Source: Acidimicrobiia bacterium (lineage in GTDB: Bacteria; Actinomycetota; Acidimicrobiia; Spongiisociales; ZC4RG35). Taken from it: a DNA stretch of 58,488 bases. The translations under genes and the position numbers were made by a program. Location: NCBI GenBank assembly GCA_040905925.1, contig JBBDQO010000012.1:1-58488 (forward strand), read 5' to 3'. The notes under the pieces were generated by a model, which was not told the origin of the DNA, did no database searches, and saw only the letters and a program-made list of their open reading frames with translations. Shown one piece after another: positions 27,379 through 31,597 of this stretch (positions are counted from its first letter, which is position 1; every line of letters begins with the position of its first letter).

Positions 27379-28023
27379 TCAGCCGAGCAGCTTTCGCTTC
27401 TCGGTGTCGTACTCACTCTGGGTCAGCTTTCCCTGATCGAAGAGCCGGCTCAGGATCTCCAGTTGCTCCGCCGACGACTTGCCCGACGAGGTGACGGTGA
27501 CCGGAGCGGGGACGAATGCGGGACTTGGAGCGGGGTTGGGCCTCGCCGCCGACATCGAATTGGTTCGGTTTCTCCGGGTCTCATCAATGAGCGACTTCAT
27601 CTTCTCGGGCTCGGGAATGTGGAACAGCCTGCTTTGGCCCCTGGAGCCGGCGAACTCGATGACGAGGTCAGCGACACCGATTGCCCGCTCGATCAGGTTC
27701 TGACGGAAGGTGACGTCGTTGATGACTTCCAGTGGAATCTCGTACTCGATTTTGCGCACCAGACCGGCACGGTCGATGAGGCGTTCGGTCGTGATCACAT
27801 GCTCGCTGGCACGCCATCGAGTGTATCCGCCGACTGGGATCCACAGCCAGAGCAAGGTGATGATCGTGAAGGCCCACCCGTTTACCCCGTCAGGCACCAG
27901 AAGGATCAACAGCAGAAGGTAGGCGACGGTGCCGAGCGCCTCCTTCCAAAGCCCCAACCAGTGCGACCCGACCTCGAAAACGACCGACTCCCCCGGAGAC
28001 AGCAGTTCCTGCGGGTAAGCCAT
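27379..28023 (-). CDS. Membrane bPH_2 domain protein with C-terminal SHOCT domain (paralog of 26747-27361)
   Basis: Same architecture: MAYPQELLSPGE..., ITTERLIDRAGLVRKIEYEIPLEVINDVTFRQNLIERAIGVADLVIE, LSRLFDQGKLTQSEYDTEKRKLLG. Confidence 0.8.
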   Translation of the reverse strand: MAYPQELLSPGESVVFEVGSHWLGLWKEALGTVAYLLLLILLVPDGVNGWAFTIITLLWLWIPVGGYTRWRASEHVITTERLIDRAGLVRKIEYEIPLEVINDVTFRQNLIERAIGVADLVIEFAGSRGQSRLFHIPEPEKMKSLIDETRRNRTNSMSAARPNPAPSPAFVPAPVTVTSSGKSSAEQLEILSRLFDQGKLTQSEYDTEKRKLLG

Positions 28024-28377
28024 TCCGTGGAGGCTACAGATCAGGGGTTGAACGGGGCCCGGTGATCGATGGCATGTCAGCCCGAGAAACGAGAAGGCCC
28101 CGAGGGAGCCTTGGCCGAAGCCTCAACCCTCTCGGGGCTCTCGTTCCGATCGGTGTCGGGCCGGGGACCCAACTCCGCTCGGAAGTCGTCGATGACCGAA
28201 GTCTTCGACGGGCGTTCACTGGAGAGCCTCGATCCGAAGATCGCTGCGATCCGGTGACCGCTCTCCCCGTTTCCAGGGAGGGGCGGATCCGAAAACCCGC
28301 CGGTCGGTAGGCCGCCCGACGATCCCTAGAGATCCCCGTTCGGTCTCCCGACCACCTCAGGGTCTCCCCTGTGGCGT
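28024..28377 (-). promoter_or_regulatory. Candidate structured 5' leader RNA, copy 1 (~350 nt), upstream of the PH/SHOCT-PH/SHOCT-acyl-CoA ligase operon
   Basis: No credible ORF. It shares blocks with 29208-29382. Minus-strand RNA contains UUCG-capped hairpins at 28231-28242, 28194-28203 and 28113-22, plus GGCGG...CCGCC around 28276-28296. Confidence 0.45.
28098..28137 (-). repeat. 40-nt imperfect hairpin repeat, copy 1 (38/40 identical to 29240-29279)
   Basis: Minus strand reads CCCCGAGAGGGUUGAGGCUUCGGCCAAGGCUCCCUCGGGG: a 7-bp outer stem, a 5-bp middle stem with two G.U pairs, and GGC-UUCG-GCC at the tip. Confidence 0.85.
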
Positions 28378-28383
28378 TCGGGA

Positions 28384-28412
28384 AAAGTAGACCACAGCCC
28401 TGCCCACCGCAA
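28384..28412 (-). promoter_or_regulatory. Promoter-like -35/-10 pair (TTGCGG, 17 nt spacer, TACTTT) on the minus strand
   Basis: The hexamers were read directly. Spacing and -10 sequence are identical to the element at 29389-29417. Confidence 0.5.
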
Positions 28413-28429
28413 ACCCAGGGCTGGATTGA

Positions 28430-28458
28430 TTTTCGCGATCTCTACTCGACTTTTCGCG
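28430..28458 (-). promoter_or_regulatory. Two direct CGCGAAAA repeats 21 nt apart, 17 nt upstream of the -35 (candidate regulator binding site)
   Basis: Minus strand reads CGCGAAAAgTCGAGTAGAGAtCGCGAAAA. The same arrangement occurs at 29435-29462. Confidence 0.4.
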
Positions 28459-28463
28459 GGGGT

Positions 28464-29207
28464 TCATATGGCGTTCTTCATCGGGATACCGATGAACAGA
28501 TGAAGCATCGACCCGTCACTCAAATCCCTGGTCCGGAACTCCGCGTCGAAGCCCGCCGTGGATAGCGCCGCCAACCAGTCAGAAGTTGAGAACAGTCCCT
28601 GCCGATGTCGATCATGCACCACCGACACCTGGTCGCCTTCCCTGAGCAGATAGACCATGTCCGTCTCGAATGTCGTGTCACCTGGTTCGGGGTCCCAGAC
28701 CCATTCCAGATAGCGAAGACCCCGGGTGCCCTCGTCGTGACCTCCGTGCTCGGTGCCCGGCTCAAACGTCTCGGTGACGTAGTCGGGAACGAAGAGGGCC
28801 ACCCCCTCAGGGGAGCAGTGCTCGCGGGCAGTCCTCGCCGCTGCGATCACATCTTCGATGTCGCTGAGATAGGAGAGCGCATCGTGGAGGAACACCGCGT
28901 CGAAGGGATCACCGAGACGGACAGTCCGCATGTCTCCATGGATGTGAGCGCACTCCGGGTTCAGAGCCCGGCTCACTGCCAGCATCGGCTCGGAACGATC
29001 GACGAGGGTCATCGAGAAGTGGGCCTTGAGATGGGAGGCGTTGTTTCCACCGCCAGATCCGAGCTCGAGCACCCGCCTAACCTCCGACGCCGCGGACTCG
29101 ACAAAGATCTGCCGATAGACCTCAGCCTCTTCGGCATACTCATCCGGCGGGGAGAGCAGCGGCCACCAGCCGGCAAGGTCACCGTAGAGACGGGGGGTGT
29201 CCTCCAA
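28464..29207 (-). CDS. Class I SAM-dependent methyltransferase (TylM1/DesVI-like fold)
   Basis: VLELGSGGGNNASHL (motif I), then VDRSEPML and FDAVFLHDALSYL. TTG is the only in-frame start at the 5' end. Confidence 0.85.
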   Translation of the reverse strand: MEDTPRLYGDLAGWWPLLSPPDEYAEEAEVYRQIFVESAASEVRRVLELGSGGGNNASHLKAHFSMTLVDRSEPMLAVSRALNPECAHIHGDMRTVRLGDPFDAVFLHDALSYLSDIEDVIAAARTAREHCSPEGVALFVPDYVTETFEPGTEHGGHDEGTRGLRYLEWVWDPEPGDTTFETDMVYLLREGDQVSVVHDRHRQGLFSTSDWLAALSTAGFDAEFRTRDLSDGSMLHLFIGIPMKNAI

Positions 29208-29382
29208 GCCCGCAAAGCTACGCCCCCGGACGCGAGAAACCCCGAGGGAGCTTTGGCCGAAGCCTCAGCCCTCTCGGGGCTCTCGATGCCACCCTGCCAG
29301 GAAAGCGGGCCCCCGGCATGGTGGCGATCCGGAAAAACCGAAGTCTCTCCTTCTCCGACCCGGGGTTCCCCCCGTTTCGGTA
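29208..29382 (-). promoter_or_regulatory. Candidate structured 5' leader RNA, copy 2 (~175 nt), upstream of the methyltransferase
   Basis: Shares the order of blocks with copy 1. GGAGAGAC-UUCG-GUUUUUCC is an 8-bp hairpin (29331-29350). GCCACC...GGUGGC forms an enclosing stem. The terminal hairpin is at 29240-29279. Confidence 0.45.
29240..29279 (-). repeat. 40-nt hairpin repeat, copy 2
   Basis: Minus strand reads CCCCGAGAGGGCUGAGGCUUCGGCCAAAGCUCCCUCGGGG. The two differences from copy 1 turn U.G pairs into C-G and U-A. Confidence 0.85.
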
Positions 29383-29388
29383 GTCGGG

Positions 29389-29417
29389 AAAGTAGGTATT
29401 GCCTTCAGGTGCGTCAA
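29389..29417 (-). promoter_or_regulatory. Promoter-like -35/-10 pair (TTGACG, 17 nt spacer, TACTTT) on the minus strand
   Basis: Read directly. It is followed by CCCGAC, as in copy 1 (CCCGAA). Confidence 0.5.
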
Positions 29418-29434
29418 GCGATAGGGCGGGTTTC

Positions 29435-29462
29435 TTTTCGCGTCCTACAGCTCGATTTCGCG
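29435..29462 (-). promoter_or_regulatory. Direct repeats CGCGAAAT / CGCGAAAA 20 nt apart, 17 nt upstream of the -35
   Basis: Minus strand reads CGCGAAATCGAGcTGTAGGACGCGAAAA. This is the counterpart of 28430-28458. Confidence 0.4.
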
Positions 29463-29514
29463 GTGCCCGGACAGGTCCACGTTCCTGTCACAGGGGGCCC
29501 TTACACTCGCCTCC

Positions 29515-30309
29515 ATGACCGTCGAAGCACCCGATCGACAACTGACGACGCTCTCCCCGAGCCGGGCGGGTGACTTCAAGACGTGCCCTCAGCTGTTCAA
29601 GTTTCGTGCGGTCGATCGCCTCCCCGAGCCGACATCGGTCTATCAGGCCAGGGGGACCACGGCCCATCTCGCCCTGCAGCGCCTCTTCGATCATCCGGCC
29701 GTGGACCGCTCGCCCGATCTCCTCTACAACCTGTTCCGGGAGGCGTGGACCGAGTTGAGGGGAGACGAGGAGTTCGAGAGTCTCTTCGAGGACACAGAAG
29801 CCGAGCGGACCTGGGGTCTGCAATCGATGGAGCTCCTCGCCAACTATTTCGGCATCGAAGACCCCACCAGTTTCGACCCGGTCGACCGTGAGCTCGACAT
29901 GCTCGAGGATCTGGACGGGATCGTGATCCGCGGCATCCTCGACAGGATGGATCGTGACGAGGACGGCCGTCTGGTCATCACCGACTACAAGACGGGGTCC
30001 GCTCCCCCGGAGCGATACGCCCTCCCTGCCTTCTTCGCTCTCAAGATCTACGCCCTGCTCATCAGACGCCGAACCGGGGAGACGCCGAAGGAGATCAGGC
30101 TGCTCTATCTGAACGGGCCGACCGAATACCGCCTCGGCATCGACGACCGCCAACTCGATGCCATGGACGGTCAGCTACGCGCCCTGTGGAATGCGATCGA
30201 GAGGGCAATGACTTCGGGGCGGTTTCCGACCAGACCGGGCAGGTTGTGCGACTGGTGCTCGTTCAGGGGCATCTGCCCGGCCTTCGTCCCAGACGCCCAC
30301 CGCGATTAA
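29515..30309 (+). CDS. PD-(D/E)XK nuclease, RecB/Cas4-like with a 4Fe-4S cysteine set
   Basis: FKTCPQLF (first Cys), GILDRMDRDEDGRLVITDYKTG (D...D-Y-K), C-terminal CDWCSFRGIC (CxxCx5C). A TACACT hexamer 7 nt upstream of the ATG suggests a leaderless mRNA. Confidence 0.85.
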   Translation: MTVEAPDRQLTTLSPSRAGDFKTCPQLFKFRAVDRLPEPTSVYQARGTTAHLALQRLFDHPAVDRSPDLLYNLFREAWTELRGDEEFESLFEDTEAERTWGLQSMELLANYFGIEDPTSFDPVDRELDMLEDLDGIVIRGILDRMDRDEDGRLVITDYKTGSAPPERYALPAFFALKIYALLIRRRTGETPKEIRLLYLNGPTEYRLGIDDRQLDAMDGQLRALWNAIERAMTSGRFPTRPGRLCDWCSFRGICPAFVPDAHRD

Positions 30310-31597
30310 GGGAAGATACCTCGGACCAGTTTGGCGTCTGCCACCTTGCGAATCCCCTTGATGAGGGCGGCGGTCCGCAGGTCCACGTTCTCACTCTGGG
30401 CGATGTTGTGTACGTCGCTGAAAGCCCGGGTCATGATCTCCCGGAGACGGGCCACGACTTCGTTCTCCGTCCAGAAGTACTTCTGCACGTCCTGCACCCA
30501 TTCGAAGTAGGAAACGGTGACACCACCGGCATTGGCGAGGATGTCGGGAACCATGAGCACCTCGCGGGCACGGAGCAGGTCATCCGCCTCGATGGTGGTC
30601 GGGCCGTTGGCGCCCTCGAGGATGATCTTGGCCTGAATGCTGTCGGCGTTGTCGGCGCGGATCACGTTCTGGACCGCCGCGGGCACCAGCACATCGACCG
30701 GCAGGGAGAAGACAACGTGGCCATCGATGTGGTCGGCGTCGGGGTATCCCTCGAGAAAGCGGCTCTCGTCGACCCATTTCGCCAGCGCCTCGATATCGAG
30801 CCCATCGGGGTTGTAGACGCCTCCCGAGATGTCGGACACCGCCACGACTCTGGCGCCCATTTGGTGACCGGCGATCGCGGCGTATCTGCCCACATTGCCA
30901 AACCCATGGATGGCGACCGTGGCGTCCTTGGGGTCGAGGCCCCGAATCGCCGCCGCCTGTGGCAGCAGGAACATGATGCCCCGACCGGTGGCCTCCCTCC
31001 GGGCAATACTCCCACCAGGGCGGGAGGCTTGCCGGTGACGACGGCCGGCACGGAGTGACCGACATGCTGGGAGTAGGTGTCCATCATCCATGCCATCACC
31101 TGCTCGTTGGTCCCGAGATCGGGGGCGGGGATGTCGGTATCCGGGCCGATCACATTGATGATCTCCATCGTGAACCGTCGGGTCACCCTTTGCAGCTCGG
31201 CCCGGGAGACCTGCAACGGGTCGAGACGCACCCCGCCCTTGGCCCCACCGAACGGCAGCCCCACGATCGAGCACTTCCACGTCATCAGCATGGCTAGGGC
31301 GGCGATCTCGCCGAGGTCGACATCCGGCGCGAACCGGATCCCGCCCTTGGTCGGCCCCATAGTGGTCAGATGCTGCACCCGATAGCCGAACAGTGTCTCG
31401 ACTTCGGAGTAGTTGTCGTGGCGGAAGGGAAAGCTGACGACAGTGGCCTTCTGGGGAACCCGGAGCCGGTCTGTCACGTTGTCGTCGAGGCCCATCAGAC
31501 GGGCCACCCGGTCGAATTGGCCGACGGCCTCGTGATACATGGGAGAGTCGAATTCGTGGCCGATCGGCTTGAGCACCGGTGTGACGGCGTTGGCCAT
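30306..31597 (-). pseudogene. gdhA: Glutamate dehydrogenase (Glu/Leu/Phe/Val dehydrogenase family) interrupted by a 1-nt frameshift near 31017
   Basis: The N-terminal part (31597 down to ~31018) carries KGGIRF, GLPFGGAKGG and ends ...VTGKPPAL. The C-terminal part, in another frame, starts GGSIARREATGRG..GFGNVG... Inserting one base in the run at 31016-31017 restores ALGGSIARREATGRG. Confidence 0.75.

What the first reader, a model, noticed from the sequence alone, without database searches (positions are those of the whole stretch)
28098..28137. The 40-nt hairpin occurs twice, and both substitutions preserve pairing only on the minus-strand RNA
Copy 1 (28098-28137) and copy 2 (29240-29279) differ at two positions. 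On the minus-strand RNA both positions lie in the middle stem. They change U12.G29 to C12-G29 and U13.G28 to U13-A28, so wobble pairs become Watson-Crick pairs. On the plus strand the copy-1 wobbles would be A/C mismatches. The pattern therefore argues for selection on RNA structure and also indicates the transcribed strand. The flanks (CGAG-AG ... CUCG) can extend the stem in both copies. No strong U-tract follows, so it is not a classical intrinsic terminator.
Basis: seen in the sequence. Interest (0 to 1): 0.6.

Follow-up and report, generated by a model that had tools for sequence, protein, structure and literature searches.

The report
Shared end-hairpin of twin small RNAs
The repeated 40-nt hairpin is the almost unchanging 3' end (a terminator-type stem-loop) of two neighbouring genes for very abundant, heavily folded non-coding RNAs, which belong to an uncatalogued RNA family of soil and sediment Acidimicrobiia whose function is unknown.

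Summary
Two copies (28098-28137 and 29240-29279) differ at two bases and fold best as minus-strand RNA.

With 127 distinct homologues the structure and the strand are firmly supported:
- 96% of cells are paired in sense, against 82% in antisense.
- The G10.U31 wobble is invariant.
- There are 276 G.U cells against 10 A.C cells.
- Pair 12-29 covaries (CG, UG, UA).

It belongs to a purine-rich internal loop.

The hairpin is not an isolated element. It is the 3' module of two sibling sRNA genes on the minus strand, of about 150 and 290 nt. Each gene has two CGCGAAA(A) boxes, a -35/-10 promoter and a chain of UUCG/GNRA-capped hairpins.

Metatranscriptome contigs cover only these two RNAs, at word depths up to about 166,000. 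They end 0-9 nt after the stem.

Strong hits are limited to the window's order of Acidimicrobiia (35 of 36 genomes sampled). The element matches no Rfam family, plasmid or phage. Function is unknown.

This scan has already reported the same family on other genomes.

The parts
28098..28137 (-). Hairpin copy 1, the terminal stem-loop of the long sibling RNA (unit B). It has 7 bp, an A8/C33 mismatch, 5 bp (including U12.G29 and U13.G28), a 2x2 purine loop, and 3 bp closed by c(UUCG)g.
28086..28147 (-). Extended terminal helix of unit B. The GGAACGAGAG and CUUCUCGUUUC flanks pair around the 40-nt core, leaving a 2-nt CC bulge.
   Evidence: 66-nt fold, -42.2 kcal/mol, z -4.66
28090..28378 (-). Predicted unit B RNA (about 289 nt), a chain of about 9 tetraloop-capped hairpins. 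The 5' end is inferred from the -10 position. The 3' end comes from poly(A)/adapter junctions at 28089-28098.
   Evidence: (MFE -169 kcal/mol, z -6.2)
28384..28412 (-). Unit B promoter: -35 TTGCGG (28407-28412), 17-nt spacer, -10 TACTTT (28384-28389).
   Evidence: Read. Conserved in the alignment and in the promoter list.
28430..28458 (-). Unit B upstream pair of CGCGAAA(A) boxes, 21 nt start-to-start.
   Evidence: this box pair occurs only at the two RNA promoters in the genome; 148 of 164 hairpins in other genomes have the same module upstream
29240..29279 (-). Hairpin copy 2, the terminal stem-loop of the short sibling RNA (unit A). It has C12-G29 and U13-A28.
29234..29285 (-). Extended terminal helix of unit A (CGAGAG / UUCUCG, 1-nt U bulge). 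The U-rich tail UUUCUCG lies inside it.
   Evidence: the tail consensus is
29234..29385 (-). Predicted unit A RNA (about 150 nt): four hairpins, H1 GNRA-capped, H2 UUCG-capped, H3 long, H4 the terminal hairpin. Adapter junctions at 29233-29237 mark the 3' end.
   Evidence: MFE -93.2 kcal/mol, z -6.1; 16 of 45 consensus pairs with compensatory changes
29389..29417 (-). Unit A promoter: -35 TTGACG (29412-29417), 17-nt spacer, -10 TACTTT (29389-29394).
29436..29462 (-). Unit A upstream pair of CGCGAAA boxes.
28464..29207 (-). SAM-dependent methyltransferase gene lying between the two RNA genes. It is not part of the RNA family, and most related genomes lack it, so their two hairpins lie only 390-600 nt apart.

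Best explanation
The 40-nt hairpin, with its GAGAG/CUCUC flanks (about 20 bp in all), is the shared 3'-terminal module of two sibling, independently promoted, highly structured small RNA genes read from the minus strand. Unit A is about 150 nt (29385 to 29234). Unit B is about 290 nt (28378 to 28090).

It defines the RNA 3' end. The very stable GC-rich stem, capped by c(UUCG)g and followed by a short U-rich tract, acts as a Rho-independent terminator and/or a block to 3' exonucleases. This insulates each unit from the next promoter or gene.

Its lower stem, the A8 mismatch and the G10.U31 wobble barely change across a whole order, while the RNA bodies vary freely. It is therefore probably also a recognition handle for a common partner, likely a protein.

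Shown: the repeat, the fold, the covariation, the strand, the gene architecture, abundant discrete transcripts that end at the hairpin, and the taxonomic range.

Inferred: the termination mechanism, the partner binding, and control by a regulator at the CGCGAAA boxes.
For: - Repeat and folds.
- Covariation on 127 distinct homologues: 96.0% of cells paired against 91.2% in shuffles (0 of 500 reach it), 7 of 15 pairs with double changes, slid controls 35-64%.
- Strand: sense 96.0% against antisense 82.0%, G10.U31 in 127 of 127, 276 G.U cells against 10 A.C cells, UUCG loop in 120 of 127. The model R1 scores about 75 bits in sense against about 34 bits in antisense on the same site.
- Gene architecture: the box-box/-35/-10 module lies upstream of 148 of 164 hairpins in other genomes. 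It is aligned.
- A third paralogue with the same modules sits at another locus in congeners.
- Expression and 3' ends: in four metatranscriptomes depth exists only over 28071-28355 and 29211-29381. It reaches 166,005 and is 0 in the bins over the flanking methyltransferase and bPH genes in X25 and X26, and at most about 2 in single bins in X27 and X29. Poly-T or adapter junctions lie just before 28089-28098 and 29233-29237 on the plus strand.
- Tail consensus UUUCUCGC or UUUUUCGC.
- The whole RNAs fold into hairpin chains with z about -6. The short form has 16 of 45 pairs with compensatory changes.
Against: - Copy 1 has a poor U-tract (CCUUCUCG). The simple terminator scan does not call either full hairpin.
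- The RNA evidence comes from assembled contigs of relatives that are at least 85% alike, not from this organism. It cannot separate termination from exonucleolytic trimming back to the stem.
- The invariance of the lower stem is partly ascertained. The GTDB-wide pattern fixed those bases with at most 3 changes. The BLAST-based sample shows the same conservation.
- No partner protein has been identified. No neighbouring gene is consistently linked.
Confidence: 0.8

Rival explanations
1. The hairpins are the expression platforms (attenuator terminators) of cis-regulatory leaders or riboswitches. These would control the genes downstream: the methyltransferase after copy 2, and the bPH_2-SHOCT/acyl-CoA ligase operon after copy 1.
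For: - Synteny with the bPH_2-SHOCT and AMP-binding ligase genes holds across much of the order. The hairpin lies only 40-130 nt upstream of the next start.
- I identified no separate promoter for the methyltransferase gene (TTG start 33 nt after copy 2) or for the bPH gene (not looked for further).
Against: - In most relatives the two units sit directly in tandem, so unit A would be the 'leader' of another RNA gene.
- A third paralogue lies at an unrelated locus.
- Neighbours across 120 loci are diverse: SDR, luciferase-like monooxygenase, histidine kinase, unknowns.
- Metatranscriptome depth falls from thousands to zero at the hairpin.
- No Rfam riboswitch matches.
- The terminator, not a ligand pocket, is the most conserved part.
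Confidence: 0.1
2. The RNAs are the Acidimicrobiia counterpart of 6S, Ms1 or CoRP: abundant RNAs that bind RNA polymerase. The invariant hairpin would be the polymerase-contact or stability element.
For: - Abundance in metatranscriptomes is very high.
- No 6S RNA is detectable in this genome.
- The authors of PMC11077062 propose that each bacterial species has one abundant RNAP-associated RNA. They note that such RNAs escape homology searches in Actinobacteria.
- Sizes of 150-400 nt lie in the range of those RNAs.
Against: - The predicted folds are chains of short local hairpins. They have no long closing helix and no large central bubble that would mimic an open promoter.
- The Ms1 synteny (HAD-IB hydrolase and oxidoreductase, PMC9130861) is not present here.
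- There are two to five paralogues per genome, of very different lengths.
Confidence: 0.15
3. The repeat is a DNA-level element, such as a REP/MITE-like palindrome, a recombination site or a cassette boundary bracketing the methyltransferase gene. It would not be an RNA element.
For: - The two direct copies bracket a methyltransferase gene that is present in only some congeners.
- Hairpins within one locus are more alike than between loci (4.4 against 6.9 differences). This fits gene conversion.
Against: - There are only 2 copies in the genome.
- The hairpin is always coupled to the promoter module.
- The G.U against A.C asymmetry and the invariant G.U wobble show selection on one RNA strand.
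- The hairpin is transcribed at very high levels.
- There is no plasmid or phage match.
- The pair of units exists with and without the methyltransferase gene.
Confidence: 0.02

Closest known systems
Rho-independent (intrinsic) terminator hairpins of bacterial sRNA genes
   Same: - A GC-rich stem-loop sits at the end of a short transcription unit.
- It is followed by a U-rich tract (UUUCUCG, or UUUUUCG in the family).
- RNA 3' ends lie 0-9 nt after the stem.
- An A/G-rich 5' flank can pair with the tail.
   Different: - The sequence is nearly invariant across an order, whereas terminators normally drift.
- The stem is unusually long (about 20 bp), with a fixed A mismatch, a fixed G.U wobble and a purine internal loop.
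- The U-tract is short and interrupted. Copy 1 here has CCUUCUCG.
Sibling (multi-copy) sRNA genes with one shared upstream operator, for example PrrF1/PrrF2, OmrA/OmrB, Qrr1-5 (recalled from general knowledge)
   Same: - Two to five paralogous genes lie often in tandem.
- Each has its own promoter, preceded by the same conserved upstream DNA motif.
- Each has its own terminator.
   Different: - Those sRNAs share a single-stranded seed for mRNA pairing and usually need Hfq.
- Here almost every base is paired. The shared conserved part is the terminal hairpin, the bodies differ in length from 150 to more than 400 nt, and no Hfq gene was found.
Ms1 / 6S / CoRP RNAs (abundant RNA-polymerase-binding RNAs; PMC9130861, PMC11077062)
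   Same: They are abundant, stable, structured, stand-alone RNAs of 150-500 nt in Actinomycetota that escape sequence-based annotation.
   Different: - There is no rod-with-bubble fold.
- The synteny is different.
- There are several paralogues.
- RNAP binding is untested.
Csr/Rsm protein-sponge RNAs (CsrB, RsmY/Z)
   Same: They are arrays of many short hairpins with little linker, are very abundant, and often have several paralogues with a shared upstream activating sequence.
   Different: - The loops here are UUCG or GNRA tetraloops, not GGA motifs.
- No CsrA gene was found in the genome.

Membership tests
Intrinsic (Rho-independent) terminator | Stable GC-rich stem-loop at the end of a transcription unit | tested here: met
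   Core folds reach -25.5 and -27.7 kcal/mol, and extended folds -42.2 and -39.2. The hairpin lies at the end of promoter-driven units.
Intrinsic (Rho-independent) terminator | U-tract immediately 3' of the stem | tested here: inconclusive
   Copy 2 has UUUCUCG. Copy 1 has CCUUCUCG. The family modes are UUUCUCGC (33 of 127) and UUUUUCGC (12 of 127). The strict consensus scan does not call the full hairpins.
Intrinsic (Rho-independent) terminator | Transcripts end in or just after the tract, with no read-through | tested here: met
   Poly-T or adapter junctions lie at 28089-28098 and 29233-29237. Depth is 0 in the next bins. The caveat is that these are contigs of relatives, and trimming cannot be told from termination.
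Any Rfam 15 family | Covariance-model match at or near the gathering score | tested here: not met
   There are 0 matches at gathering score in the window. The best E-value hits in 27900-29600 are chance-level (E at least 0.66, well below gathering).
6S RNA | Match to RF00013, or a rod-like fold with a large central bubble | tested here: not met
   There is no RF00013 hit in the genome. The MFE and consensus folds are chains of local hairpins.
Ms1 RNA | Conserved synteny between a HAD-IB hydrolase/phosphoserine phosphatase gene and an oxidoreductase gene (PMC9130861) | tested here: not met
   The neighbours are a PD-(D/E)XK nuclease, a methyltransferase, bPH_2-SHOCT genes and an AMP-binding ligase.
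Ms1 / CoRP RNA | Binding to RNA polymerase core | not testable with these tools
   This needs RIP-seq or a pull-down.
Sibling sRNAs with a dedicated regulator | Two or more paralogous genes, each with its own promoter and a shared upstream motif | tested here: met
   Two units lie here, and up to 5 in other genomes. The box pair is unique to these promoters in the genome. Regulator binding itself is untested.
Sibling sRNAs with a dedicated regulator | Conserved single-stranded seed for mRNA pairing | tested here: not met
   The folds leave almost no unpaired stretch. The conserved segment is the paired terminal hairpin.
Csr/Rsm sponge RNA | Repeated GGA motifs in hairpin loops, and a CsrA/RsmA protein in the genome | tested here: not met
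   The loops are UUCG or GNRA. There is no PF02599 hit in the 92.9%-complete genome.
REP/MITE-type dispersed palindromic repeat | Many dispersed copies per genome, independent of gene architecture | tested here: not met
   There are only 2 copies in the genome. 148 of 164 homologous hairpins carry the promoter module upstream.

The most novel reading that the evidence does not exclude
The invariant hairpin (fixed A8 mismatch, fixed G10.U31 wobble, purine loop, UUCG cap) is the docking handle by which a whole family of very abundant hairpin-chain RNAs binds one central cellular machine. That machine could be RNA polymerase, as a structurally new counterpart of 6S/Ms1/CoRP, or another global RNA-binding protein. 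A dedicated regulator acting at the CGCGAAA boxes would set the RNA level. This would be a new class of global regulatory RNA in a widespread uncultured soil and sediment clade.
Probability: 0.2. Interest if true: 0.8.

Novelty: new variant of a known kind. Interest (0 to 1): 0.6.

Why it matters
Acidimicrobiia are widespread in soil, sediment and water metagenomes and are mostly known only as MAGs, and their RNA biology is essentially unknown. This family is among the most abundant non-ribosomal transcripts in several soil metatranscriptomes (word depth up to about 166,000 in a data set of 100 million letters), yet it is absent from Rfam.

The hairpin provides three practical things:
- a compact, highly specific signature (model R1) for annotating these genes and their strand in MAGs;
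- a well-defined bait for finding the RNA's partner;
- a natural example of a terminator whose sequence, not just its shape, is under strong selection.

If the RNAs prove to be global regulators, they would fill the gap left by the absence of 6S, Hfq and CsrA in this genome.

Tried and rejected
- **Rfam.** I scanned at gathering score and at a permissive E-value over the window, the two gaps and eight third-paralogue loci. Nothing relevant came up, only two tRNAs elsewhere.
- **Dispersed repeat.** Rejected: there are only two copies in the genome. A weak third model hit on contig C4 is an ordinary unrelated hairpin.
- **Small protein gene.** Rejected. Orthologue alignments show indels that are not multiples of three and compensatory stem changes. 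A short ATG-initiated frame in the third paralogue is not conserved.
- **K-turn reading of the internal loop.** Considered by eye and rejected. There is no 3-nt bulge followed by GA on the second strand. The loop is a symmetric 2x2 or 3x3 purine loop.
- **Conserved protein partner by neighbourhood.** ORF clustering around 120 loci found no universal neighbour.
- **Minus-strand 221-aa ORF upstream.** It is the antisense shadow of a plus-strand PD-(D/E)XK nuclease gene.
- **Regulon of the CGCGAAA box pair.** The pair occurs only at the two RNA promoters.
- **6S, CsrA and Hfq.** None was found in the genome.
- **Plasmid and phage collections.** No match.
- **Consensus promoter/terminator scan.** Uninformative for this high-GC organism.
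- **Literature.** Searches found no description of the family.

Full report
**1. The observation**

Reading 27900-29500 and the repeat finder confirm a 46-nt direct repeat at 28098-28143 and 29240-29285, with two differences. A degenerate 40-nt pattern finds exactly these two sites in the window, against none in 100 shuffles. A BLAST of the whole 2.48-Mb, 136-contig assembly (92.9% complete) finds no further copy.

- 7 bp;
- an unpaired A8 opposite C33;
- 5 bp (G9-C32, G10.U31, G11-C30, 12-29, 13-28);
- a 2x2 loop;
- 3 bp closed by a c(UUCG)g tetraloop.

The minus-strand energies are -25.5 and -27.7 kcal/mol. The plus-strand energies are -20.5 and -26.5, and copy 1 loses its middle stem there. 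With flanks, the helices extend to about 20 bp (-42.2 and -39.2 kcal/mol).

**2. What surrounds it**

All confirmed genes next to the copies lie on the minus strand: a SAM methyltransferase (28464-29207), two bPH_2-SHOCT genes and an AMP-binding ligase. The upstream minus-strand 221-aa ORF is only the antisense shadow of a plus-strand PD-(D/E)XK nuclease gene (29515-30309, Pfam E 1.4e-35).

Both non-coding gaps have the same order of elements on the minus strand:
- two CGCGAAA(A) boxes, 21 nt apart;
- a -35 hexamer (TTGCGG or TTGACG);
- a 17-nt spacer;
- a -10 hexamer (TACTTT);
- a structured stretch;
- the hairpin.

I checked it independently.

**3. Homologues**

A BLAST of the 71-nt element against 60 related genomes hit 59 of them, usually as two or three copies 300-1200 nt apart. 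Alignment of the inter-hairpin region and a tblastn map gave three results:
- The locus is syntenic (GDH, nuclease, RNA units, bPH_2-SHOCT, ligase).
- The methyltransferase gene is present in only some congeners.
- Where it is absent, the two units are directly tandem.

Same-genus genomes carry a third paralogue at another locus. It has the same boxes, promoter and hairpin, followed by UUUUUCGCG. It was not found in this assembly.

Most are labelled Acidimicrobiia or Acidimicrobiaceae, and the rest carry broader labels (Actinomycetota, 'uncultured bacterium', or Acidobacteriota, which I take to be mislabelled); none names a cultured species. Some carry up to five tandem copies. In those loci 148 of 164 hairpins have the full box-box/-35/-10 module upstream. 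Inferred RNA lengths cluster at 145-160 nt or spread over 230-750 nt.

A covariance model of the hairpin (R1) gave the following range:
- strong, mostly paired hits in 35 of 36 sampled genomes of the window's order;
- only weak single hits in other orders of the class. One of these is a recognisably diverged version;
- only weak single hits in the rest of the phylum.

There is no match in the plasmid or phage collections.

One caveat on data use. Locus L006 comes from genome G011, which is flagged unpublished. It contributes 2 of 127 rows in alignment A2 and 1 of 14 in A3.

**4. Structure and strand, tested on 127 distinct hairpins (alignment A2)**

The count of structure pairs gave:
- 96.0% of cells paired, against 91.2% (sd 0.4) in shuffles (0 of 500 reach it);
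- 7 of 15 pairs with changes on both sides;
- 110 double-change cells, against 24.7 expected;
- 35-64% paired when the 3' partners are slid by 1-3 columns.

My own count gave:
- sense 96.0% paired against antisense 82.0%;
- G10.U31 in 127 of 127 rows;
- 276 G.U cells against 10 A.C cells;
- UUCG loop in 120 of 127 rows.

Pair 12-29 is CG in 47 rows, UG in 42 and UA in 36.

The second is not a reliable pair. Positions 13-28 pair in only 57% of rows, with U.U, G.A and A.A common. U.U is the state in most orthologues of copy 1. Together with G14/A15 and R26/A27 (GA/GA in 49 rows, GA/AA in 20) these positions form a purine-rich internal loop.

C12 against U12 is a fixed difference between the short and long paralogues throughout the genus. 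The two substitutions are therefore old paralogue signatures, not recent events.

Part of the lower-stem invariance is ascertained, because the GTDB pattern fixed those bases. The BLAST-derived sample shows the same conservation.

**5. Expression**

Two run searches found soil and sediment metagenomes and metatranscriptomes that hold the stretch. I laid the contigs of four metatranscriptomes on 27900-29600 at 85% likeness or more.
- Depth exists only over 28071-28355 and 29211-29381.
- It reaches 38,280 (X25) and 166,005 (X27).
- It is 0 in the bins over the flanking methyltransferase and bPH coding regions in X25 and X26, and at most about 2 in single bins in X27 and X29.
- Loose ends are runs of T immediately before 28089-28098 and Illumina adapter immediately before 29233-29237 on the plus strand. 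These are poly(A) or adapter joined to the 3' end of a minus-strand RNA, 0-9 nt after the stem.

The caveats are that these are assembled contigs of related organisms, that contigs have no direction of their own, and that termination cannot be told from 3' trimming.

**6. The RNAs**

Unit B (about 289 nt) folds into about nine consecutive hairpins capped by GNRA or UUCG loops (-169 kcal/mol, z -6.2). Unit A (about 150 nt) folds into four (-93 kcal/mol, z -6.1). The consensus fold of 14 short-form orthologues has 16 of 45 pairs with compensatory changes. Hardly any base is left single-stranded.

In this genome and its closest relative, unit B lacks a module of about 95 nt that is present in other congeners.

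**7. Mechanism**

The best-supported reading is this. The hairpin is the 3'-end-defining module, acting as a terminator and/or exonuclease block, of sibling sRNA genes on the minus strand. Its sequence invariance, in contrast with the variable bodies, suggests a second role as a handle for a shared partner.

I tested four alternatives:
- **Leader or attenuator.** It is disfavoured by the tandem arrangement, the unlinked third paralogue, the diverse neighbours and the absence of read-through signal.
- **6S/Ms1/CoRP-like RNAP binder.** It is not excluded, given the abundance and the lack of a detectable 6S. But the fold and the Ms1 synteny (PMC9130861) do not fit. CoRP (PMC11077062) shows that such RNAs can be structurally idiosyncratic.
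- **Csr-type sponge or Hfq-dependent seed sRNA.** It is disfavoured: there are no GGA loops, no CsrA and no Hfq, and no conserved unpaired seed.
- **DNA-level repeat.** It is essentially excluded.

The CGCGAAA box pair occurs nowhere else in the genome. Any regulator that binds it would therefore be dedicated to these genes.

**8. Novelty**

I found no Rfam family and no paper that describes this RNA.

Earlier follow-up reports of this scan, on other genomes, describe the same family and reach the same 'undescribed, function unknown' verdict. I treated these as leads only.

The hairpin itself is a known kind of element, a terminator-type 3' stem-loop, in an unusual, sequence-invariant form. 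It belongs to an uncatalogued sRNA family.

Noticed in passing
window 30306-31597 (-): Glutamate dehydrogenase is split into two overlapping ORFs in different frames: the N-terminal dimerisation domain in 30662-31597 and the NAD-binding domain in 30306-31280. This is a frameshift or an assembly error.
   Followed up: partly
window 29488-30153 (-) and 29515-30309 (+): The 221-aa minus-strand ORF, which looks conserved in tblastn across relatives, has no Pfam hit. The overlapping plus-strand ORF is a PD-(D/E)XK nuclease (E 1.4e-35). The minus ORF is an antisense shadow. The nuclease gene is divergent from the unit A promoter.
   Followed up: yes
window 28464-29207 (-): The methyltransferase gene sits exactly between the terminator of unit A and the boxes of unit B. 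It is present in only some genomes of the genus (L010-L013) and absent in others (L006-L009, L014-L018). I noticed no promoter or Shine-Dalgarno sequence of its own (not checked systematically), which suggests an insertion at this spot.
   Followed up: partly
L035-L042 (same-genus genomes, other locus): A third paralogous RNA gene (about 190 nt) has the same boxes, promoter and hairpin, and a better U-tract (UUUUUCGCG). It was not found in this window's assembly, which is 92.9% complete. It may be lost or unassembled.
   Followed up: partly
L023, L044, L124, L054, L111, L121: Hairpins within one locus share lineage-specific variants and are more alike (mean 4.4 differences) than hairpins of different loci (6.9). 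Five-copy arrays alternate two hairpin types. This suggests recent duplication and/or gene conversion.
   Followed up: partly
window 28300-28360 (-) against L006, L008-L018: Unit B here, and in the closest relative (L007), lacks a hairpin module of about 95 nt that is present in the other congeners (289 nt against 381-390 nt). The RNA body evolves by gain and loss of whole hairpins.
   Followed up: partly
window 28185-28210 (-): A second c(UUCG)g-capped hairpin (GUCGAAGAC-UUCG-GUCAUCGAC) lies about 80 nt upstream of copy 1. It is conserved, with compensatory changes, in relatives. Several body hairpins repeat a GAUC-UUCG-GAUC theme, which suggests internal duplication.
   Followed up: no
run X25: One metatranscriptome contig joins 29251 to 28114 with 5 extra letters. 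This is most likely an assembly chimera across the two near-identical hairpins, not a real joint.
   Followed up: no
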